From Flavobacteriales bacterium (lineage in GTDB: Bacteria > Bacteroidota > Bacteroidia > Flavobacteriales > UBA7312), in assembly GCA_016779995.1 (NCBI GenBank), contig JADHMO010000005.1, positions 99 through 64,098 on the forward strand: DNA of 64,000 nt, in the 5' to 3' direction. Positions 287 to 62,508 of this stretch are shown here, piece after piece. The notes under the pieces were generated by a model. The model was not told the origin of the DNA. It saw nothing but the letters and a program-made list of their open reading frames with translations, and made no database searches. Position 1 is the stretch's first letter; each line of letters begins with the position of its first letter. A program made the translations under genes and the position numbers.

Positions 287-2899
287 TTATTTGCCTGTCA
301 TCTTTTTTATCTCATTCAATTTCATCAATGCCTCAACAGGCGTTAATGAATTGATATCTAAATCTTGAATTTCATCTCTGATACGCTCCAAAATAGGATC
401 ATCTAATTGGAAGAAACTCAATTGCATTTCATCGTCTTTAGCAATTAGGTCTTTTGCCTTATTCTCTTGCGAAGCATGAGCTTTTTCTAAGCGTTTCATT
501 ATAATGTTGGCTCTATCAACTACTGATTTAGGCATGCCTGCCATTTTTGCCACGTGAATACCAAAACTATGTTCACTGCCGCCTTCAACTAGTTTCCTTA
601 AAAATAATATCTGATTGCCTATTTCTTTGACTGATACATTAAAGTTTCTAATCCTTTCAAATGATTTAGTCATTTCATTCAACTCATGATAGTGTGTCGC
701 AAATAGTGTTTTAGCTTGTGTGCTATGTTGGTGTAAAAACTCAGCTATGGCCCAAGCTATAGATATACCATCGTAGGTACTCGTTCCTCTGCCAATTTCA
801 TCAAGAAGAATTAAACTTCTATCCGAAACGTTATTTAGGATACTGGCTGTTTCGTTCATTTCTACCATAAAAGTAGATTCCCCCTGGGAAATATTATCCG
901 AAGCTCCTACCCTAGTGAAAATTTTATCAACTAGACCTATTGTAGCACTTTCGGCTGGAACAAAGCATCCTATTTGAGCAAGTAAAACTATTAATGCTGT
1001 TTGTCTTAAAATTGCGGACTTACCTGACATATTAGGACCAGTAATCATGATAATCTGCTGCTGTTCTCTATCCAAGTATATATCATTAGCAATGTATTCT
1101 TCTCCAACGGCTAGTTGCTGTTCAATGACAGGATGTCTACCATTTTTTATGCTTAGACCATAGTCTTCTGAAATTTGAGGTTTAGAGTAACGATACCTTT
1201 TAGAAAGCTCTGCAAAAGAATGTAATACGTCTAATTGAGCTACTCGCTGAGCGTTAATTTGTACATCAGGAATGAAATCTATTAAACTTAACACCAAATC
1301 ATTGAACAATTGTGTTTCAAGAGCTAATATTTTTTCTTCAGCTCCTAAAATTTTAACTTCCAATTCTTTTAACTCCTGAGTTATATAGCGTTCTGCATTG
1401 ACTAGTGTTTGCTTTCTAATCCACTCTTCTGGCACTTTATCTTTATGAGTATTGCGTACTTCTAAATAATAACCAAAGACATTATTAAAAGCTATCTTTA
1501 GAGAAGGTATAGCTGTGCGCTCCGTTTCACTTTCAAGTATTTGTTGAAGTAAGAAATGGCTATCTTTAGATACGGAACGTAAGTCATCAAGTTCTGTATT
1601 CACTCCTTCTGCAATAACCTGCCCTTTATTTATGGCTATGGGTGCATTATCATCAATTTCATTTTCAATTCGGTTTCTGATAAACTCGCACAAATTAATA
1701 TGGTCAGCAAGTTGAATAAGTGCCTTATTATTGGAATTTTCTAAAAATTCTTTGACTGGTTCAATAGCTATTAAAGCACGTTTTAACTGAACCACTTCTC
1801 TGGGGTTTATTCGAGCAGTAGCTACTTTAGAAATGAGTCGTTCTAAATCTCCTATCTCTTTGATATGATTAATAACATCTTCCTTTTCAGAGCTTTCTTG
1901 CATCAAAAATTCGACAGCTGACAATCGGTCTTCTATAAGTTGTTTTTCTTTTAATGGAAATGCTACCCATCTTTTCAACAGCCTTGAGCCCATAGGAGTA
2001 ATACTATGGTCTAAAATGTCCACTAAAGTGGTCGCTCCCTCATTGGAAGAATGAAACAATTCTAGATTTCGAATAGTGAAACGATCCATCCAAACATGCT
2101 TTGATTCTTCAATACGCTGAAGGTTAGCAATGTGCTTGATATGGTGGTGCTGTGTTTCGGATAAATAGTGTAAAACTGCCCCCGCAGCTACAGTGCCTTC
2201 TGTCAATGCTTCTACACCAAAACCTTTGAGTGAAACTGTACCAAAATGAGATAAAAGCTTTTCTTGTGAGAATTCCGATGTAAACACCCAGTCTTCTAAT
2301 GTGCTGGTGTAGTATTTGTCTCCGAATAAATTTAAAAACTTCTTGTGATGCTGTTTTTGAAAAACAATTTCAGAAGGATTAAAACTTTGCAATAACTTGC
2401 CAATGTATTCGTCTTGTCCTTGAGCAACTAAAAATTCGCCTGTAGAAATATCTAGAAAAGATAGCCCAATATCCTTAGCACCAAAATGAATAGATGCTAA
2501 AAAATTATTAACCTTTTGGTCAAGTACTTTATCGTTATAGGAAACGCCTGGAGTTACTAATTCGGTTACACCCCTTTTTACAATTTTCTTAGTGGCTTTA
2601 GGGTCTTCTAATTGATCACAAATGGCTACTCGCTGACCCGCTCTTACTAACTTTGGCAAATAGGTGTCTAAAGCATGATGTGGAAAACCCGCCAAAGCAT
2701 CGTTAGATGAGCCATTGGACCGTTTAGTTAGTGTTATACCTAAAATTTTAGATGACAGCACAGCATCTTCCCCGAAAGTTTCATAAAAATCTCCAACTCT
2801 AAACAACAACATAGCATCAGGGTATTTAGCCTTGATACTGTTGTATTGTTTCATAAGTGGTGTCACTTTAGCTACAGTTGTATTTTTTTTAGCTGCCAA
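287..2899 (-). CDS. mutS: DNA mismatch repair protein MutS
   Basis: 870 aa. N-terminal mismatch-binding motif [17 protein letters not shown], Walker A GPNMSGKS, and [14 protein letters not shown] plus THYHEL in the ATPase domain. Confidence 0.97.
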
Positions 2900-2938
2900 G
2901 AGTCTATTTTATATAGTTTTGTACTTTCATTATAAAAG

Positions 2939-3466
2939 ATGCGTAAGTTAAAAAATAAGGAGCTAAATAGACTCAATTTAGAAGAATTTAAAAACAAAAA
3001 AAAAGTACCTATCATAATTGTACTAGATAATGTACGCAGCGCACACAATGTAGGCTCTGTTTTTAGGACTTCTGATGCTTTTTTGATTGAAAAAATTATG
3101 CTTTGCGGCATTTGCCCAATACCACCAAAAAACGAAATTCGCAAAACAGCTCTGGGTGCAACGGAGTCTGTGGACTGGGAATACTTTAAGGATAGTACAG
3201 ATTGCATAAAAGGACTTACTGAAAAAGGTTATAAAATTGTTAGTATTGAACAAGCCGACAATGCCACCAACCTAAACAACTATGAAATGGAAAAATCTCA
3301 AAAAATAGCTTTAGTTTTTGGCAACGAGGTCAATGGTGTGAGCGAAGAAATTATCCAACTAAGTGATGACGTTATAGAAATACCCCAACACGGAACGAAA
3401 CACTCTTTTAATGTATCCGTAAGTGTTGGGATAGTGCTATGGGATTTAAGCCGTAAAATAGGCTAA
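2939..3466 (+). CDS. TrmH/SpoU family RNA 2'-O-methyltransferase
   Basis: 175 aa. SpoU motifs NVGSVFRTSDAF, LVFGNEVNGVS and IEIPQHG..HSFNVSVSVGIVL. Diverges from mutS. Confidence 0.88.
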   Translation: MRKLKNKELNRLNLEEFKNKKKVPIIIVLDNVRSAHNVGSVFRTSDAFLIEKIMLCGICPIPPKNEIRKTALGATESVDWEYFKDSTDCIKGLTEKGYKIVSIEQADNATNLNNYEMEKSQKIALVFGNEVNGVSEEIIQLSDDVIEIPQHGTKHSFNVSVSVGIVLWDLSRKIG

Positions 3467-6899: not shown

Positions 6900-7530
6900 A
6901 TGCTAAAGTAATTCGGTGAATACCTTTATCGTATAACTGAGTTGTTAAACTTAGTAATTGCTGAAAAACATTATTCTGGTTTACGAAGTCAACCTCACTA
7001 ACATCAACAATTAGAACTGGGAATTCTGAGTGTTTTTTGAAGAAATCGAAATACTTATTTTGAATGTCTGAAAGGTAATCATCAGAGATATTTTGCTCAT
7101 AACTTCGCCCTCTTTTTTTGATATTCTCTTGCAAACGTTTTATATCTGAATGCAGATAAATGATTAAATCTGGCTTTGGCAAATTTTTCAACGCTATATC
7201 TGATAATCTATTGAATAACAAAAGCTCGTCATCACTAAGGTTGTTTTCGGCAAACAACTTAGATTTTACGAAGAAATAATCCGATACAATTCCTTTAGAA
7301 AATAAATCTTGCTCTCGTAAATCACCCAATTGTCTGTAACGTTCTGCCATAAAGAAAAGTTCCAAAGAAAAAGCGTAGCGTTCAGGCTGATTGTAAAATT
7401 TTGGAAGAAAAGGGTTGTCAGCAAACTCTTCTAAAACAATACGGTAGCCAAGTTCTTCAGCTAACATTTTCGAAAAGGTAGTTTTACCAACACCAATGTT
7501 TCCCTCTATAGTAATAAATTGATAACTCAT
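6898..7530 (-). CDS. Deoxynucleoside kinase (paralog 1)
   Basis: 210 aa. P-loop IEGNIGVGKTT, LID-region KRGRSYE, and the dNK-family pattern FLPKFY..ERY. Confidence 0.9.
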   Translation of the reverse strand: MSYQFITIEGNIGVGKTTFSKMLAEELGYRIVLEEFADNPFLPKFYNQPERYAFSLELFFMAERYRQLGDLREQDLFSKGIVSDYFFVKSKLFAENNLSDDELLLFNRLSDIALKNLPKPDLIIYLHSDIKRLQENIKKRGRSYEQNISDDYLSDIQNKYFDFFKKHSEFPVLIVDVSEVDFVNQNNVFQQLLSLTTQLYDKGIHRITLA

Positions 7531-8012
7531 AATTTTCTTACATCAGAATTGTCACTGCAAGAATACAACAATTGACTAATGGTTTTGTCAAATTTTGGAT
7601 GAATTTGATTAGGCGCGATTTCTGCTAAAGGTAATAAAGCAAATCGTCTATTCTGTAAATGAATATGTGGAATAATTAAGTTAGTATCATTAACTAATTC
7701 TGTATTAAACAAAAGAATATCTATATCAATAGTTCTTGCTTCATAATTATCTGTATTGGCTCTTATCCTTCCCAATTGTTGCTCTATTGAAAGACAAGCA
7801 TCTAAGGTTTTAAGAGGGGATAATTCAGTAGAAACTAGTAAGGCTTGATTCATGAAATTATTTTCATGCTGAAAGCCCCAAGGTGGCGATTCATACAAAG
7901 ATGATGAGCTACTGACAACACCAACACTCAACTCCAACATACGAATAGCTTGTTGAAATAACTCTTTAGAATTACCCAAGTTGCTACCTAAAAGCAAATA
8001 CACTGTATTCAT
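7527..8012 (-). CDS. folK: 2-amino-4-hydroxy-6-hydroxymethyldihydropteridine diphosphokinase (HPPK)
   Basis: The ORF track extends to 8387, but recognisable HPPK sequence begins at MNTVYLLLGSNLGN (ATG at 8012). Motifs PPWGF and IDIDILLF are present. The extra 125 codons run across the divergent sppA promoter and into its start region. Confidence 0.88.
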   Translation of the reverse strand: MNTVYLLLGSNLGNSKELFQQAIRMLELSVGVVSSSSSLYESPPWGFQHENNFMNQALLVSTELSPLKTLDACLSIEQQLGRIRANTDNYEARTIDIDILLFNTELVNDTNLIIPHIHLQNRRFALLPLAEIAPNQIHPKFDKTISQLLYSCSDNSDVRKL

Positions 8013-57643: not shown

Positions 57644-58657
57644 ATGAAAAGAACTTTTACTCTATTTGCCTTGATTAGTTTATTCTTGGCAAGTTGCATA
57701 AAGCAAGACCAAACCTACGTTACTCTCAAAGGTCATATTCTTAATGCACCATCAGACACCATCTACATTTATGACAATTTTGACGCCTATCAAAAAGTTA
57801 TTATTCTCGATGAACATAATAACTTTAACGATACCCTAAACATTAGAACTGCGGAATATTATTTTGAAATTGGAGAAGAATCTACCAACCTATTCCTTAG
57901 CGAAGGCGACGAGATGGAAATTACCTTAGATTACCTCTCTTTCGACGAAACTATCAATGCTAGTGGAAAAGGTCAAAAAATTAACAATTACCTTTTTAAA
58001 AGAGTATTATTAAGAGAAAAAAATATTTACGAAGACCCTACTTTCTTTGATAAGGATTCGGCTCAATTCTATCACAATCTTAATACCTTTTTTGATAAAG
58101 AAATACACACCTTAGAACGTTTGCATTTAGACTCTCACATATTTGCCGAAGAAAAAGAAGGTATAGCTATGACTAAGAAAAATATTGGTTATTTCTACCG
58201 CAGCAAACAAGAACTCAAGCAACTTGCTATGTTAGAAAATGCTCCCGAATTTACGCTCAAAGATACAGATGGCAACAGTGTATCTTTATCTGATTTTAAA
58301 AGCAAACTTGTATTGATAGATGTTTGGGCAACTTGGTGCAAACCTTGCATACAAGAAATTCCTGACCTCAAAGCTTTACTACAAGACTATGAAGAAAGTA
58401 ATCTTAGCTTTGTAGGCATAAGCATAGACCAACAAGAAGATATTGAATTATGGAAAGAAAAGGTAGGAGAAGAACAACTACCAGGAACACAGCTCATTAT
58501 GGATAACGGCTGGCAATCCAAATTTAAATCTGACTATGTGGTTTCAAGCGTGCCTCGCTTTATTCTTATTGATGAAGAAGGTAAATTTATAGATGTAGAT
58601 GCTCCTAGACCTTCAGAAGGCAATAAGCTTAGGATATTAATTGACGAACATTTGTAA
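57644..58657 (+). CDS. TlpA-family thiol-disulfide oxidoreductase lipoprotein
   Basis: 337 aa. Lipobox LFLASC, and a C-terminal thioredoxin domain with VWATWCKPC and SVPRFILID. Confidence 0.88.
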   Translation: MKRTFTLFALISLFLASCIKQDQTYVTLKGHILNAPSDTIYIYDNFDAYQKVIILDEHNNFNDTLNIRTAEYYFEIGEESTNLFLSEGDEMEITLDYLSFDETINASGKGQKINNYLFKRVLLREKNIYEDPTFFDKDSAQFYHNLNTFFDKEIHTLERLHLDSHIFAEEKEGIAMTKKNIGYFYRSKQELKQLAMLENAPEFTLKDTDGNSVSLSDFKSKLVLIDVWATWCKPCIQEIPDLKALLQDYEESNLSFVGISIDQQEDIELWKEKVGEEQLPGTQLIMDNGWQSKFKSDYVVSSVPRFILIDEEGKFIDVDAPRPSEGNKLRILIDEHL

Positions 58658-58662
58658 AAAAA

Positions 58663-58691
58663 GGGAGAGCAATTTGCTCTCCCTTTTTTTT
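58663..58691. terminator. Bidirectional intrinsic terminator
   Basis: Stem gggagagca/tgctctccc with loop att, A7 upstream and T8 downstream. It sits between the TlpA-like gene and mscS. Confidence 0.8.
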
Positions 58692-59499
58692 ATCGGTTGA
58701 TATGAACCACATGAGGAAATGGAATTTCTACACCTGCTTTGTCCAGTGCCAACTTTGCATTTTCATAAGTATCGAAATAAACATCCCAATAATCGGCTGG
58801 TTTACAATAAGGTCTAACCACAAGCGTAATGGAACTCGAAGATAAGTCCGATACGCCAACATAAGGTTTGGGACTTTTAAGTACCTTTTTGTGATCTGTC
58901 AATACAGCCATCAATGCCGATTTAGCCTTTTTTAAGTCTGAACTATATGCCACTCCAACTTTTATATCTACTCTAATCTTTCCTTCGATCGTGTAGTTAA
59001 CAATGTTACCGTTAGCTATAGCACCATTGGGGATAATGACTCTTTTATTGTCAGGCGACACCAATTGAGTGTTAAAAATATCAATTCCTCTAACCTCACC
59101 TATCAAACCCTGAGCCTCAATAAGATCGCCTATTCTGTAAGGTTTAAAGACCATTAATAGGACACCTCCAGCGAAATTAGCTAAAGAACCTTGCAAAGCT
59201 AAACCAACCGCCAAACCAGCCGCTGCTATGATAGCCGCAAAGGTAGTTATGTCTATTCCTAAGGTGGAAATAACTAAGAGTATCAACATAATTTTCAGTG
59301 ACCAAGACAAAAGGTTATTAAAAAACCCTTGAAGAATTAAATCGTATTTGGTTTTTTTCATAATTTTATTGAAGCCCAAAAGCAACTTTTTAATTATCCA
59401 AGAGCCAATAAAATAAATAAGTAAGGCACCCAAGACTTTGGGACCATAATGCGTGATGAAATCAATTGCTTTTTCTAGCAACAAATCTGCTTTTTCCAT
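58690..59499 (-). CDS. Small-conductance mechanosensitive channel (MscS family)
   Basis: 269 aa. Three TM helices, with the pore-helix motif GSLANFAGGVLLMVFKPYRIGDLIE followed by a beta domain. Confidence 0.9.
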   Translation of the reverse strand: MEKADLLLEKAIDFITHYGPKVLGALLIYFIGSWIIKKLLLGFNKIMKKTKYDLILQGFFNNLLSWSLKIMLILLVISTLGIDITTFAAIIAAAGLAVGLALQGSLANFAGGVLLMVFKPYRIGDLIEAQGLIGEVRGIDIFNTQLVSPDNKRVIIPNGAIANGNIVNYTIEGKIRVDIKVGVAYSSDLKKAKSALMAVLTDHKKVLKSPKPYVGVSDLSSSSITLVVRPYCKPADYWDVYFDTYENAKLALDKAGVEIPFPHVVHINR

Positions 59500-59587
59500 G
59501 TTTTAAGTTTTTAAAGTTTAAGTGGTAAAAGTAATTAAAAAAGAAGTTCTTAAAAAGAAATGTAAACAGTTATACAAAAACAGCAAT

Positions 59588-60649
59588 TTATTGTTGCGTT
59601 GACGAAACAATAAGCTCAATAGGCATGTAGAGTGTACTACAGTCTTTTATTGGTTTTATTCCAGCAAGTGAACTATGAATAAACTCTTTATATTTTGACA
59701 CAACTTCATCAGCGTTAATATCTTGTATATAAATGAATTCTAAATTAGTCATGTTTTTAATTAGCTTACGGTCAATCTCTAGATTGTATTTTGGAATTGA
59801 GTAGCCAGAAATTACGAGAATATTAGTGTCTTTAGTATGTTCTAGTGCTGATTTTAATACGCTTCTGTTTTCCCCTCCCCATTCTTCTTCATAAGCAAAT
59901 GATAATAAAGAGTAGAGTTTTTTTTCAGTCGCAAACATATATCTTCTTAGGATTTCCTTTATTGAGTCTTCCAAGACTGTTGAGTGTTTATTCGTAAAAT
60001 AATGCTCATTATGTTCTCTATCCAAGAAGCCAAGCATACCATTTAACTTAAAGATTTGTGGATTATGGGCGAAGCTTCTATGTTTAGTTGTCATTTTGAG
60101 ATTTGAAAAGGATGTTTTATGCCCCCAATCGTTTTCGAAAAACTCTTCGTATGATGACTCTATAAGATTATCGTAATTCCAACTTAATATTTTAATCTCT
60201 TTTTTTAACGAATAATCGTGCAATTGGTCTGTAAAAAAATCTTTATATCTAGTTTCTCTCAATCTCTTTATCAATTGATTGTTTTTGAAAATTTCTTTTC
60301 CTCGTATTTCAAGTATCGTTAAAGCTACTGAATACGTATGTTTAAATTCGTTAGATACAGGCTGATTTCTAACAAGTTGTCTTTTGCAATATGCGTCAAC
60401 AGATAGTCCAAATTTTCTCACTCTTTCTACCATATCTTTTAAATTTGATATAAGTGTATTTGCTGCCTCTTCTTGTGTGAATTTTAAATCTCCAACTTGA
60501 AGTACTTCCTTAGCATTAAAATTCTTACTGTGTTTATAATTCTCAAGTAATGAAATGACACTAAAAATAGCATTATTCATTTCTTTAACGACTGGCATCC
60601 CATTTGCACTAGCCCCAGCCCCTAATAAGTAGGTTACATTTTTTTTCAT
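59588..60649 (-). CDS. SIR2-like (SIR2_2 / DHS-like NAD-binding fold) family protein, orphan
   Basis: 353 aa. Ordered motifs LLGAGAS (aa 8-14), ILSWNYDNLIE (154-164), IFKLNG (199-204, Asn where SIR2 enzymes have the catalytic His) and ILVISGYSI (277-285). The gene is AT-rich relative to its flanks and has its own consensus -7 box. Confidence 0.65.
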   Translation of the reverse strand: MKKNVTYLLGAGASANGMPVVKEMNNAIFSVISLLENYKHSKNFNAKEVLQVGDLKFTQEEAANTLISNLKDMVERVRKFGLSVDAYCKRQLVRNQPVSNEFKHTYSVALTILEIRGKEIFKNNQLIKRLRETRYKDFFTDQLHDYSLKKEIKILSWNYDNLIESSYEEFFENDWGHKTSFSNLKMTTKHRSFAHNPQIFKLNGMLGFLDREHNEHYFTNKHSTVLEDSIKEILRRYMFATEKKLYSLLSFAYEEEWGGENRSVLKSALEHTKDTNILVISGYSIPKYNLEIDRKLIKNMTNLEFIYIQDINADEVVSKYKEFIHSSLAGIKPIKDCSTLYMPIELIVSSTQQ

Positions 60650-60670
60650 GTTCTTTAATTTTGTTCAATC

Positions 60671-60678
60671 CAAATCTA
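60671..60678 (-). promoter_or_regulatory. Bacteroidota -7 promoter box (TAGATTTG on minus strand) for the SIR2-like gene
   Basis: Exact TAnnTTTG 21 nt upstream of the ATG at 60649. A TTG lies 20 nt further upstream on the same strand. Confidence 0.45.
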
Positions 60679-60718
60679 AAGAATATCAATTTAAAACTCA
60701 ACATTTAAATCATTATAT

Positions 60719-60726
60719 TATATTTG
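60719..60726 (+). promoter_or_regulatory. Bacteroidota -7 promoter box (TATATTTG) for dnaX
   Basis: Exact TAnnTTTG. The ORF-track TTG start (60724) lies within it, so translation more likely starts at the ATG at 60736 or 60745. Confidence 0.45.
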
Positions 60727-60735
60727 TTTTCCCAA

Positions 60736-62508
60736 ATGAATCAGATGGAAAATTTTGTTGTTTCGGCTCGTAAATACCGCCCTGCTACATTCGATACTGT
60801 AGTGGGTCAGCAGTCCATTACCAACACTTTAAAAAATGCCATCAAAAACAACCATTTGGCTCAAGCTTTTTTATTTTGTGGTCCTCGAGGAGTTGGCAAA
60901 ACATCTTGTGCCCGTATTTTAGCTAAGACCATCAACTGCATGAATCTTAGCCCAGAAATAGAGGCTTGTAACGAATGTGAGTCCTGCCAAGGCTTTAACA
61001 ACAACCACTCATTCAACATTCATGAATTGGACGCTGCCTCCAATAATGGCGTGGATAAAATTCGTGAGTTAGTAGATCAGGTACGCTTTGCACCACAAGT
61101 AGGCAAGTACAATATCTACATCATTGATGAGGTACATATGTTATCTCAAGCGGCTTTTAACGCTTTTCTAAAAACTTTAGAAGAACCCCCTGCTCATGCC
61201 TTGTTCATACTTGCTACTACCGAAAAACATAAAATCATACCAACCATTTTATCACGTTGTCAAATATTTGATTTCAAGCGCATACAAATTGCTGATATCG
61301 CTGAGCACTTGGCTTATGTGGCAAAAAATGAAGGTATTGACGCCGAGCAAGAAGCCTTGCACATCATTGCTCAAAAGGCCGATGGCGCACTGAGAGATGC
61401 TTTATCTATTTTTGATCAAATCATTAGTTTTTGTGGCGATAAACTGACTTATCAAGCCGTTATACAAAACCTTAACATACTTGATTACGACTATTACTTC
61501 AAAGTAACTGATGCTTTGTATCATTCGGATATTCCTACGGCACTCAACGAATTCAACGAAATCCTAAATAACGGTTTTGACGGCCATCATTTTATCAACG
61601 GCTTGGGCATGCACTTCAGAAATTTACTGGTAGCTAAGGATAGTAGTACACTAAGTTTATTGGAAGTTGGCGATAGCATCAAAACGCGATACCTCGAACA
61701 AAGCCAAAGTTGGCAACAACAACACTTATTACAGGCTCTTGAACTTTGCAATAAAGTGGACTTGAACTACAGAATGAGTAAAAATCAGCGTCTGTTGGTT
61801 GAAATTACCTTAATGCAAATTTGTGGCGTTAAAGAAGATAATACTACAGTAGAAAAAAAAACTTTCGTCGTTAAGCAAAAGCCGTCAAACGAAGTAAAAA
61901 CTGTAGTAACAAAGGAAATTGAAGAGCAAAAAGTAGTTGCTACTCCATCAATCCTACCAAAAGATGAAGAAAAAGTAGAAATTGACATACCCAAGACATC
62001 CACAAAAGCCATTAAAATTGTCAACTTTAAAGACAACATTCCGAAAAAGACCATTTCCATTAACCCTCATTCTAAAACAGAAAAACAAGATGAGAAAAAG
62101 GATAATAGTGTAGTCCAAGAAGAAAAGCGTAATGAACAAGCGTTTTCACAAGAAGACCTCAACGAAAAATGGGAACAATACGCCAATGAAAAAGAGAACG
62201 TTGGCAAACACAATTTACTATCTATTCTAAAAGATAAAAAAGCCATATTGAAAGAAAGCTTCAATGTGTGCATAACATTAGACAATAAAGTTCAAGAAGA
62301 GGTGATAAACGATGAAAAGACTAAGCTTTTAGGGTATCTGAAGTCACAACTAGAAAACGATTACATCAGCTTAACAGTTGAGGTTACACCTCTTAAAGAA
62401 GAAGAAATGAAAGCTTATACTGCTGAAGATAAATTTAAAAAAATGGTCAAAAAAAATCCTGACTTATTGAATCTAAAGGATAAATTTGACCTCGAAATAG
62501 ACTTCTAA
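60736..62508 (+). CDS. dnaX: DNA polymerase III subunit gamma/tau
   Basis: ARKYRPATFDTVVGQ, Walker A GPRGVGKTS, zinc module CNECESC, IIDEVHMLS, and sensor ILSRCQ. Long Lys/Glu-rich tau-type C-terminus. Start at 60736 (MNQMENF..) or 60745 (MENF..). Confidence 0.93.
   Translation: MNQMENFVVSARKYRPATFDTVVGQQSITNTLKNAIKNNHLAQAFLFCGPRGVGKTSCARILAKTINCMNLSPEIEACNECESCQGFNNNHSFNIHELDAASNNGVDKIRELVDQVRFAPQVGKYNIYIIDEVHMLSQAAFNAFLKTLEEPPAHALFILATTEKHKIIPTILSRCQIFDFKRIQIADIAEHLAYVAKNEGIDAEQEALHIIAQKADGALRDALSIFDQIISFCGDKLTYQAVIQNLNILDYDYYFKVTDALYHSDIPTALNEFNEILNNGFDGHHFINGLGMHFRNLLVAKDSSTLSLLEVGDSIKTRYLEQSQSWQQQHLLQALELCNKVDLNYRMSKNQRLLVEITLMQICGVKEDNTTVEKKTFVVKQKPSNEVKTVVTKEIEEQKVVATPSILPKDEEKVEIDIPKTSTKAIKIVNFKDNIPKKTISINPHSKTEKQDEKKDNSVVQEEKRNEQAFSQEDLNEKWEQYANEKENVGKHNLLSILKDKKAILKESFNVCITLDNKVQEEVINDEKTKLLGYLKSQLENDYISLTVEVTPLKEEEMKAYTAEDKFKKMVKKNPDLLNLKDKFDLEIDF

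What the first reader, a model, noticed from the sequence alone, without database searches (positions are those of the whole stretch)
59588..60649. Orphan, AT-rich SIR2-like gene with its own promoter between mscS and dnaX; the catalytic-His position reads Asn
This 353-aa ORF has no obvious housekeeping role. By eye it carries, in the right order, the motif set I associate with prokaryotic SIR2_2-type domains, the NADase module of Thoeris ThsA, DSR1/DSR2, SIR2-HerA and SIR2-pAgo systems. The motifs are a glycine loop LLGAGAS (aa 8-14), ILSWNYDNLIE (aa 154-164, the xxNYD Asn motif), IFKLNG (aa 199-204) and ILVISGYSI (aa 277-285). IFKLNG occupies the position of the KxHG strand, but Asn replaces the catalytic His. 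I see no fused sensor or effector domain (no SLOG, TIR, HerA-like ATPase, Argonaute or TM segment). No partner gene is adjacent: the flanks are core genes, with mscS co-oriented 88 nt downstream and dnaX divergent. Composition is atypical. My hand counts of three consecutive 60-nt lines inside the gene (59641-59820) give 16, 14 and 21 G+C, against 22 for one line in mscS (59101-59160) and 26 for one line in dnaX (60781-60840). This is a small sample. The gene has its own exact TAnnTTTG box (60671-60678). Together this looks like a laterally acquired single-gene islet in an otherwise core region. It could be a minimal or noncanonical SIR2-type defence or NAD-sensing module that fits no described multi-gene architecture, and the His-to-Asn change suggests altered chemistry or a binding-only role.
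Basis: partly seen in the sequence, partly recalled or inferred. Interest (0 to 1): 0.7.

Follow-up and report, generated by a model that had tools for sequence, protein, structure and literature searches.

The report
Standalone SIR2-like gene, catalytic His→Asn
This accessory gene, gained between two core genes, encodes a lone SIR2-fold (NAD-binding) protein from a large uncharacterised bacterial family in which the histidine that every studied anti-phage SIR2 enzyme needs is always asparagine, so its chemistry and role are open and testable.

Summary
Window 59588-60649(-) is a real 353-aa gene under purifying selection (dN/dS 0.15). A confident model (pLDDT 90.7) has a SIR2 fold; the best PDB match is the SIR2 subunit of SIR2-HerA (E 1e-6). 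Mapping fragments onto Pfam SIR2_2 places N203 at the position of ThsA's catalytic H152.

- The Asn is not private to this gene. It is fixed (245/246) in a family of about 1,900-3,100 clusters at 50% identity. Members are about 335 aa, have no fused domain, and match no Pfam, NCBIfam, PADLOC or PHROG model above threshold.
- Composition does not show foreign origin. Codon usage is host-like; the low GC comes from amino-acid content.
- Acquisition is shown by comparison instead. The junction is intact in the window and one relative, reduced to a 63-codon remnant in another, and empty in a third.

No partner gene recurs across 90 family loci. A minority sit beside restriction-modification genes, Abi/PARIS-like ATPases, integrases or transposases, or inside phages.

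Best reading: a mobile, single-protein NAD-binding conflict (probably anti-phage) effector with non-canonical chemistry. SirTM sirtuins, which carry Gln at the His position and ADP-ribosylate, are a precedent. Function is inferred, not shown.

The parts
59588..60649 (-). CDS of the standalone SIR2_2-like protein (353 aa).
   Evidence: ORF. Family of at least 775 proteins, or 1,937 clusters at 50% identity at E<=1e-30. AlphaFold2 model pLDDT 90.7, pTM 0.90. Foldseek finds a SIR2 fold. dN/dS 0.15 against the ortholog in L096.
60608..60622 (-). Codons for G10-A-G-A-S14, the NAD pyrophosphate-binding glycine loop.
   Evidence: 100% conserved in 246 family members. hhalign pairs it with ThsA GAGLS.
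60200..60592 (-). Mainly helical insertion (aa 20-150) between the glycine loop and the NYD strand. It carries the invariant D85, K89, K103, R134 and Y135, and is the candidate substrate- or trigger-binding cap.
   Evidence: Secondary structure of the model. Conservation: D85 and R134 in 246/246, Y135 in 245/246. Its role is inferred.
60170..60181 (-). Codons for W157-N158-Y159-D160, equivalent to the ThsA TNYD motif with catalytic Asn N112.
   Evidence: N158 and D160 in 246/246. HMMER and hhalign align it to ThsA N112-Y-D. It maps to the start of the Pfam SIR2_2 profile.
60038..60049 (-). Codons for K201-L-N203-G204. The N203 codon AAT (60041-60043) occupies the catalytic-His position of SIR2 NADases.
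   Evidence: The fragment register on Pfam SIR2_2 puts ThsA H152 and window N203 at profile position 47. N is present in 245/246 members.
59798..59806 (-). Codons for G282-Y-S284, equivalent to the G-F/T-S strand of SIR2_2 and sirtuins. It is followed by the invariant P286, N289 and D293.
   Evidence: Conservation. The Pfam match extends to residue 285, profile position 93.
60671..60678 (-). TAGATTTG, a Bacteroidota-type -7 promoter box (TAnnTTTG) 21 nt upstream of the ATG.
   Evidence: Exact match. Conserved in the orthologous loci L141 (TAGATTTG) and L096 (TAAGTTTG). Not significant from motif frequency alone.
59546..60690 (.). Approximate extent of the accessory segment, judged against the empty junction of L001. 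L141 lacks 59546-60471 of it.
   Evidence: Alignments with L001 and L141. No tRNA, Rfam family or convincing terminal repeats are present.

Best explanation
The gene encodes a functional, standalone member of a large uncharacterised clade of SIR2_2-like proteins. I call it the 'K-x-N-G clade'.

Shown:
- It has a SIR2 Rossmann-type fold and keeps every NAD-binding signature: GAGAS, N158-x-D160, G-Y-S and Q309.
- The general-base His of all studied SIR2 NADases and deacylases is an invariant Asn.
- A helical cap carries its own invariant residues (D85, K89, K103, R134, Y135).
- The gene is accessory. It was inserted with its own promoter into the rpsF|dnaX divergent spacer of one Flavobacteriales lineage, then kept under purifying selection in some relatives and deleted in another.
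- The family has no conserved partner gene and moves between varied chromosomal sites, islands and phages.

Inferred:
- The protein binds NAD+ (or an ADP-ribose-containing ligand) and cleaves or transfers from it by non-canonical chemistry.
- The amide of N203 positions the nicotinamide ribose, as Gln137 does in SirTM ADP-ribosyltransferases.
- It acts as a self-contained conflict effector, most likely anti-phage abortive infection or exclusion. Its cap domain, or oligomerisation, would couple a trigger to activity.
For: - Fold: Foldseek top hits are SIR2 of SIR2-HerA (8wld_J E 1e-6; 8uae_F TMq 0.46), then CobB, Sir2Tm, DSR2 and ThsA.
- Pfam: SIR2_2 is the only recurring Pfam family (13/44 members, best E 4.9e-6).
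- Register of N203 with ThsA H152.
- Invariance of NAD-site and cap residues in 246 members.
- Functional gene: dN/dS 0.15.
- Accessory gene with gain and loss at one site. L001 is empty. L141 keeps a 63-codon remnant and lacks 926 bp. L096 is an intact ortholog.
- No conserved partner among 474 neighbour ORFs of 90 loci.
- Nearest neighbours include Eco57I/type IIG and type I R-M methylases (6), AbiLi (3), AriA (3), MADS components, integrases (4 loci), IS200 transposases (3), resolvases and RadC.
- Phage carriage: the gene is an opposite-strand insert between the head genes of a bona fide phage contig, and is present in Leptospira LE1-type phages.
- Precedent for an amide at the His position: SirTM Gln137 'replaces the catalytic histidine' and the enzyme ADP-ribosylates (PMC4518038).
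Against: - Mutating the equivalent His abolishes NADase activity or defence in Sir2-HerA (H287; PMC11514289), KomC (H146A; PMC13454610) and FAM118B (H206A; PMC12700824). SPARSA H186 is called crucial for catalysis (PMC11452484). PDB entry names include DSR2 H171A and KomC(H146N) variants. A plain NADase is therefore doubtful.
- No activity, phenotype or ligand has been measured.
- In this window the neighbours are core genes, and most family loci are not obviously defence islands.
- I had no background rate for the defence and mobile-element association, so enrichment is not quantified.
- The window protein falls below Pfam's SIR2_2 gathering score (19.6 against 24.5 bits).
- Foldseek TM-scores are modest (0.43-0.46).
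- This sub-lineage has lost several family near-invariants (Q162L, W253Y, R290L, F340L).
Confidence: 0.5

Rival explanations
1. Catalytically inert SIR2 pseudo-enzyme. It binds NAD+ or an NAD-derived nucleotide such as ADPR or cADPR isomers, and acts as a sensor, regulator or sponge rather than as an enzyme.
For: Asn replaces the His whose mutation abolishes activity in Sir2-HerA, KomC and FAM118B. A PDB entry name lists a KomC(H146N) variant. All ligand-binding motifs are retained. The gene occurs in phages, where signal sponges are known.
Against: N158 and D160, the residues tied to nicotinamide cleavage, are 100% invariant, as is N203 itself. A mere loss of function would not fix one residue in 245/246 members. 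SirTM shows that an amide at this site supports catalysis. A 350-aa protein with no output domain and no conserved partner has no evident way to signal.
Confidence: 0.2
2. A gene that serves mobile elements or phages: a counter-defence or host-takeover enzyme, for example one that ADP-ribosylates a host target or removes immune signals. Chromosomal copies would be leftovers of mobile elements.
For: 12 IMG/VR viral contigs and 3 Leptospira phage genomes carry homologs. In L098 the gene sits as a moron-like insert between head genes. Integrases and transposases lie nearby in several loci.
Against: The window copy and its ortholog sit between core genes with no mobile-element genes, under purifying selection across species. 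Prophage morons are as often defence genes. No PHROG family matches.
Confidence: 0.12
3. An ordinary housekeeping or metabolic sirtuin-like enzyme, such as a deacylase or an NAD(P)-dependent metabolic enzyme.
For: SIR2 fold with an intact NAD-binding site. Core-gene neighbours in this window. Host-like codon usage.
Against: Absent from the closest relative and deleted in another. The genomic context differs in every lineage sampled. It lacks the His essential to the deacylase mechanism. There is no match to the canonical SIR2 Pfam family or to any NCBIfam model.
Confidence: 0.08
4. A decaying, non-functional remnant of a former SIR2 NADase.
For: The catalytic His is missing. This copy deviates from several family near-invariants. 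A relative has a truncated copy.
Against: dN/dS is 0.15 over 351 codons, the ORF is intact, and the deviations are shared with the ortholog at 79% identity. The Asn is a family-wide invariant. The promoter box is conserved.
Confidence: 0.03

Closest known systems
SIR2 subunit of the SIR2-HerA anti-phage system (PDB 8wld, 8sub, 8uae)
   Same: Best structural match (Foldseek E 1e-6 to 9e-6, probability 1.0). Similar size (337-400 aa). SIR2 core plus a cap, and the same glycine-loop and Asn motif logic.
   Different: SIR2-HerA needs an adjacent HerA ATPase and an N226/H287 dyad (PMC11514289). Here there is no HerA in the window or in 90 family loci, and His is Asn. TM-score is only 0.43-0.46, and there is no sequence-level hit to the PDB.
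SIR2 domain of Thoeris ThsA (Pfam SIR2_2, PF13289)
   Same: The only sequence family detected. Motifs are collinear: GAGxS, NYD, K-x-[H/N]-G and G-[FY]-S.
   Different: ThsA has catalytic H152, a C-terminal SLOG/STALD sensor domain and a ThsB partner. None of these is present here. The window protein scores below the Pfam gathering cut-off.
Class M sirtuins (SirTM), protein ADP-ribosyltransferases
   Same: The only described sirtuin class in which the catalytic His is replaced by a conserved amide residue (Gln137) while the enzyme stays active on NAD+ (PMC4518038). This gives a mechanistic analogy for N203.
   Different: SirTM belongs to the canonical SIR2 family and uses Gln, not Asn. It works in an operon with a macrodomain, GcvH-L and LplA. 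No such neighbours and no sequence relationship were found here.
Vertebrate FAM118A/FAM118B noncanonical sirtuins
   Same: [quoted passage not shown] The active-site spacing is alike: N163/H206 there, N158/N203 here (PMC12700824).
   Different: FAM118 proteins keep the His (H206A prevents NAD processing) and need the A/B pair and filaments. Oligomerisation of the present family is untested.
DSR1/DSR2, SPARSA SIR2-APAZ and Kongming KomC
   Same: SIR2-fold effectors in anti-phage immunity. DSR2 appears among the fold hits.
   Different: These are large multidomain proteins or obligate multi-gene systems. The catalytic His is reported as needed in SPARSA (H186) and KomC (H146A), and a DSR2 H171A variant appears among PDB entry names. 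The PADLOC models give no hit.

Membership tests
SIR2_2 superfamily (Pfam PF13289) | Score at or above Pfam's gathering cut-off (24.5 bits) | tested here: not met
   The window protein scores 19.6 bits, E 0.001. Family member P0075 passes at 27.1 bits, and 13/44 members hit at E<=0.01. This is a remote subfamily, not a clean member.
SIR2_2 superfamily (Pfam PF13289) | SIR2/DHS-like Rossmann fold | tested here: met
   AlphaFold2 pLDDT 90.7. Foldseek hits to SIR2-HerA SIR2, CobB, Sir2Tm, DSR2 and ThsA at probability up to 1.0.
SIR2_2 superfamily (Pfam PF13289) | NAD-binding glycine loop GAGxS and catalytic Asn in N-x-D | tested here: met
   GAGAS, N158 and D160 are invariant in 246 members. NYD aligns with ThsA N112-Y-D.
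SIR2_2 superfamily (Pfam PF13289) | Catalytic His in the K-x-H-G strand | tested here: not met
   N203 occupies profile position 47, where ThsA has H152. Asn is present in 245/246 members.
Thoeris ThsA | C-terminal SLOG/STALD sensor domain and an adjacent TIR protein ThsB | tested here: not met
   No STALD hit, whereas the ThsA control gives one. The neighbours are mscS and dnaX.
SIR2-HerA | Adjacent HerA-type ATPase gene; N/H catalytic dyad | tested here: not met
   No ATPase neighbour in the window. No recurrent neighbour in 90 loci. His is absent.
DSR1/DSR2 | About 1,000-aa protein with a large C-terminal sensor region fused to SIR2 | tested here: not met
   353 aa, a single domain. Family representatives are 324-368 aa. 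No PADLOC hit.
SPARSA (SIR2-APAZ plus short pAgo) | APAZ fusion and an adjacent short Argonaute | tested here: not met
   No extra domain and no pAgo neighbour.
SirTM (class M sirtuins) | Conserved amide residue at the His position with an Arg partner; operon with macrodomain, GcvH-L and LplA | tested here: inconclusive
   An amide (Asn) is fixed at the site and R134 is invariant, but their spatial pairing could not be checked. The operon partners are absent. This is an analogy only, not membership.
Known anti-phage defence systems (PADLOC-DB v2.0) | Match to any defence-protein model | tested here: not met
   0 families at E<=10. DefenseFinder and post-2023 models could not be run.
Anti-phage defence genes in general | Protection from phage on expression | not testable with these tools
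   This needs experiment. Only contextual hints are available.

The most novel reading that the evidence does not exclude
The K-x-N-G clade is a widespread new class of single-protein immune effectors. A SIR2 fold that has swapped its catalytic His for Asn would not deplete NAD+. It would instead ADP-ribosylate a phage or host target, or make an NAD-derived product, sensing the trigger directly through its conserved helical cap. That would be a second, independent origin of the 'amide-for-His' sirtuin chemistry seen in SirTM.
Probability: 0.2. Interest if true: 0.8.

Novelty: new variant of a known kind. Interest (0 to 1): 0.55.

Why it matters
SIR2-fold NADases are among the most common effectors of bacterial immunity (Thoeris, DSR, SIR2-HerA, SPARSA, Kongming, Avs5). 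A family of roughly 2,000-3,000 sequence clusters that keeps the whole NAD site but has fixed Asn at that position, works without any partner gene, and is gained, lost and carried by phages would do one of two things. It would either extend SIR2 chemistry in prokaryotes (ADP-ribosyl transfer or another NAD reaction) or define a ligand-binding pseudo-enzyme class.

The hypothesis is directly testable with one small protein and two point mutants (N158A, N203H/A). It would also give an annotation to thousands of 'hypothetical proteins', mainly from Bacteroidota.

Tried and rejected
- Sequence searches of the PDB, with the protein alone and with the family profile, gave nothing useful: one chance GNAT hit at E 0.41, and 0 hits for the profile.
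- hhalign against a single ThsA sequence anchored only the NYD motif at default settings. A global alignment failed. I replaced these with the Pfam fragment-register test.
- DARNA (bioRxiv 10.64898/2026.02.22.705581) looked relevant from its search terms, but it is a HEPN tRNase. Rejected.
- Literature searches for SIR2 proteins lacking the catalytic His, and for standalone SIR2_2 defence genes, found no description of this family.
- No homolog in PLSDB plasmids. No PHROG family.
- Composition as evidence of horizontal transfer is rejected: GC3 and codon usage are host-like.
- Sigma-70 promoter and terminator scans were uninformative.
- The hairpin over the stop codon is no better than shuffled sequence (z -0.63).
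- The flanking 29-nt inverted repeat I1 is only 72% complementary in AT-rich DNA and is misplaced relative to the insert boundary. I judged it chance.
- No tRNA or Rfam element marks an integration site.
- Upstream co-oriented genes in L088, L090, L092, L093 and L094 were tested as a possible partner. They are unrelated to one another.
Full report
**1. The observation**

Window 59588..60649(-) is an intact 353-aa ORF with an ATG start. The flanks are as described. mscS (58690..59499, -) lies 88 nt downstream and is co-oriented, and dnaX is divergent. Identical copies of the gene in the same context occur on three independent public contigs.

**2. What the protein is**

- The only Pfam hit is SIR2_2 (PF13289), at E 0.001 and 19.6 bits. 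This is below the 24.5-bit gathering score.
- PADLOC, NCBIfam and PHROGs give nothing.
- The protein belongs to a large family. The word-indexed search found 775 proteins. An exhaustive profile search of 1.84 billion representatives found 3,102 clusters at 50% identity at E<=1e-3 and 1,937 at E<=1e-30.
- All of the best 150 representatives are 324-368 aa and match end to end. The standalone, single-domain architecture is therefore the rule.
- Almost all members are unannotated. Source names point mostly to Bacteroidota, with a few others.
- 13 of 44 members hit SIR2_2 on their own (best E 4.9e-6), and no other family recurs.
- An AlphaFold2 model built on the family alignment is confident (pLDDT 90.7, pTM 0.90).
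- Foldseek against the PDB returns only SIR2-fold proteins at the top. First is the SIR2 subunit of SIR2-HerA (8wld_J E 1e-6; 8uae_F TMq 0.46), then CobB, Sir2Tm, SIRT3/5, DSR2 and ThsA.
- The viral library gives a giant-virus sirtuin as its only significant hit.
- There is no TM segment.

**3. The His position**

I verified a ThsA reference sequence against PDB 6lhx_A, then mapped matched fragments onto the Pfam SIR2_2 profile.

| Fragment | Maps to profile positions |
|---|---|
| ThsA fragment ending ...KMHG | 2-48 |
| Window fragment ending ...KLNG | 3-48 |
| ThsA fragment starting KMHG | 45-108 |

ThsA H152 and window N203 therefore both occupy profile position 47. A low-MACT hhalign independently pairs GAGAS with GAGLS, WNYD with TNYD, and FKLNG with YKMHG. 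Default hhalign and unfiltered HMMER anchor NYD to ThsA N112-Y-D.

The Asn is not a mutation of this gene. In 246 diverse members, conservation is as follows:

| Residue(s) | Conservation |
|---|---|
| N203 | 245/246 |
| N158, D160, G10-S14, D85, R134, G282, Y283, P286, N289, D293 | 246/246 |
| Y135, Q309 | 245/246 |

The whole NAD-binding signature of sirtuins is kept, and the cap domain (aa 20-150) has its own invariant polar residues.

**4. Is the gene functional, and how did it get here?**

- Against its ortholog on contig L096, dN/dS is 0.15. That ortholog is 79% identical at the protein level and aligns end to end with window 59493-60736, both flanks included. The neighbouring genes give 0.08-0.09.
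- The window protein departs from the family at several near-invariant positions: A88C, Q162L, W253Y, R290L and F340L. These are shared with the ortholog, so they are sub-lineage traits, not decay. T86A is private to the window copy.
- The junction exists in three states:
  - Intact: the window and L096.
  - Decayed: the TARA scaffold L141 has the same dnaX-mscS-TlpA-rpsF synteny but keeps only the promoter and first 63 codons. It lacks window 59546-60471.
  - Empty: L001, the relative with the most similar dnaX (86% aa), has mscS 107 nt from dnaX.
- In more distant Bacteroidota, rpsF abuts dnaX directly. So mscS, the TlpA-like gene and the SIR2-like gene are successive insertions into one divergent spacer.
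- Composition does not show foreign origin. GC 0.312 is tied lowest of 42 ORFs (z about -2.1). GC3 (z -0.6) and synonymous codon usage (z +0.53) are host-like, and the protein is simply rich in FYMINK residues.
- No tRNA, Rfam element or convincing terminal repeat marks the insert.
- The TAnnTTTG box at 60671-60678(-) is not significant by count (110 against 93 +/- 10), but it is conserved in both orthologous loci.
- No terminator is evident between the gene and mscS.

**5. Context across the family**

- Eight members with precomputed annotations showed eight different neighbourhoods. Their adjacent genes are unrelated to each other.
- Clustering 474 neighbour ORFs from 90 loci found no universal partner. 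The largest groups were:
  - recG (six loci, at least three distinct contexts);
  - N6-adenine methylase or R-M proteins (six loci, four abutting at 16-29 nt on the same strand);
  - tyrosine integrases (four loci);
  - IS200-type transposases (three loci).
- A bulk scan of 145 nearest neighbours from 82 loci gave Eco57I (6), N6_Mtase (4), MmeI (3), AbiLi (3), AriA (3), MADS components (3-4), AAA_21 (3), Y1_Tnp (3), Resolvase (2) and RadC (2).
- Twelve IMG/VR viral contigs and three Leptospira LE1-type phage genomes carry homologs.
- In L098 the gene sits on the opposite strand between the portal and head-morphogenesis genes and the major-head gene.
- No PLSDB plasmid carries it.
- This is the profile of a mobile accessory gene with some affinity for defence and mobile-element neighbourhoods. 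I had no background rate, so I cannot claim statistical enrichment.

**6. Mechanism**

In Sir2-HerA, N226 and H287 are 'completely conserved' and a point mutation at H287 abolishes NAD+ hydrolysis (PMC11514289). KomC H146A abolishes defence and almost all in-vitro activity (PMC13454610). SPARSA H186 and N142 are described as crucial for NAD+ catalysis (PMC11452484). FAM118B H206A prevents NAD processing (PMC12700824). PDB entry names list KomC(H146N) and DSR2 H171A variants. A plain ThsA-like NADase is therefore unlikely.

An invariant Asn is not what loss of function produces, and the nicotinamide-cleavage residues N158 and D160 are untouched. The one precedent I found is class M sirtuins, where an absolutely conserved Gln137 'replaces the catalytic histidine'. 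It contacts the ribose 3'-OH and a conserved Arg, and the enzyme is an ADP-ribosyltransferase (PMC4518038).

I therefore favour, at about 0.5 confidence, an NAD-binding enzyme with non-canonical chemistry (ADP-ribosyl transfer or modified hydrolysis) that acts as a self-contained conflict effector. Its conserved cap is the candidate trigger or substrate site.

Rivals:

| Rival | Confidence |
|---|---|
| Ligand-binding pseudo-enzyme | 0.2 |
| Gene serving phages or mobile elements (counter-defence) | 0.12 |
| Housekeeping enzyme | 0.08 |
| Dead gene (contradicted) | 0.03 |

**7. Comparison with known systems, and novelty**

The protein works most like the SIR2 effectors of anti-phage systems and resembles the SIR2 of SIR2-HerA most in structure. 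It fails defining features of every named system:

- no His;
- no HerA, ThsB, pAgo or KomAB partner;
- no SLOG, APAZ or DSR sensor domain;
- below the Pfam threshold;
- no PADLOC model.

It shares the standalone format of about 350 aa, and the Asn/His spacing, with vertebrate FAM118 sirtuins. It shares the amide-for-His swap with SirTM, as an analogy only.

I found no paper describing this clade. I rate it a new variant of a known kind and moderately interesting (0.55). The anatomy and evolution are solid. The function is inferred and cheap to test.

Noticed in passing
window 57644-58657 (+): The TlpA/AhpC-TSA-like thiol-disulfide oxidoreductase lipoprotein gene is also absent from the close relative L001, where rpsF follows mscS directly. 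It is present in L141. In more distant Bacteroidota, rpsF abuts dnaX with no mscS either. The rpsF|dnaX divergent spacer looks like a recurrent landing site for single accessory genes.
   Followed up: partly
L141 4900-5340 (TARA_Y100000385_G_scaffold48309_2); window 60472-60872: The 63-codon remnant of the SIR2-like gene, the spacer and the dnaX 5' end are about 91% identical to the window, against 70-80% for the flanking genes. The remnant's dS is 0.21, against about 1.9 for the flanks. It also carries a 6-nt GCTAGT duplication that turns GAGAS into GAGASAS. This may reflect a more recent recombinational exchange of this segment, or constraint from overlapping promoters.
   Followed up: partly
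L001 7086-7893: mscS in the closest relative is split into two overlapping ORFs (7086..7592 and 7531..7893). This is either a frameshift pseudogene or a long-read assembly error.
   Followed up: no
window 60719-60745 (+): The mechanically listed TTG start of dnaX (60724) overlaps dnaX's own TATATTTG -7 box (60719-60726). The start conserved with L001 is probably the ATG at 60745 (MENFVV...), which implies a very short leader.
   Followed up: no
L161, L167, L172, L179 (family loci): In four unrelated metagenomic loci, an Eco57I/MmeI-type (type IIG) restriction-modification gene directly abuts the SIR2-like gene at 16-29 nt on the same strand. It is about 900-1,000 aa where complete, and is cut by the contig end in L172. 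This may be a functional pairing in a subset of the family.
   Followed up: partly
L098 7073-7816 (+): In a phage contig the SIR2-like gene is followed on the same strand by a 247-aa ORF of phrog_34615 (unknown function). Together they form a two-gene opposite-strand insert between the head-morphogenesis gene and the major head module.
   Followed up: no
window 59588-59613 (-): A 12-bp hairpin overlaps the stop codon of the SIR2-like gene. Its folding energy is no better than shuffled sequence (z -0.63), so there is no evidence for a terminator and read-through into mscS is possible.
   Followed up: yes
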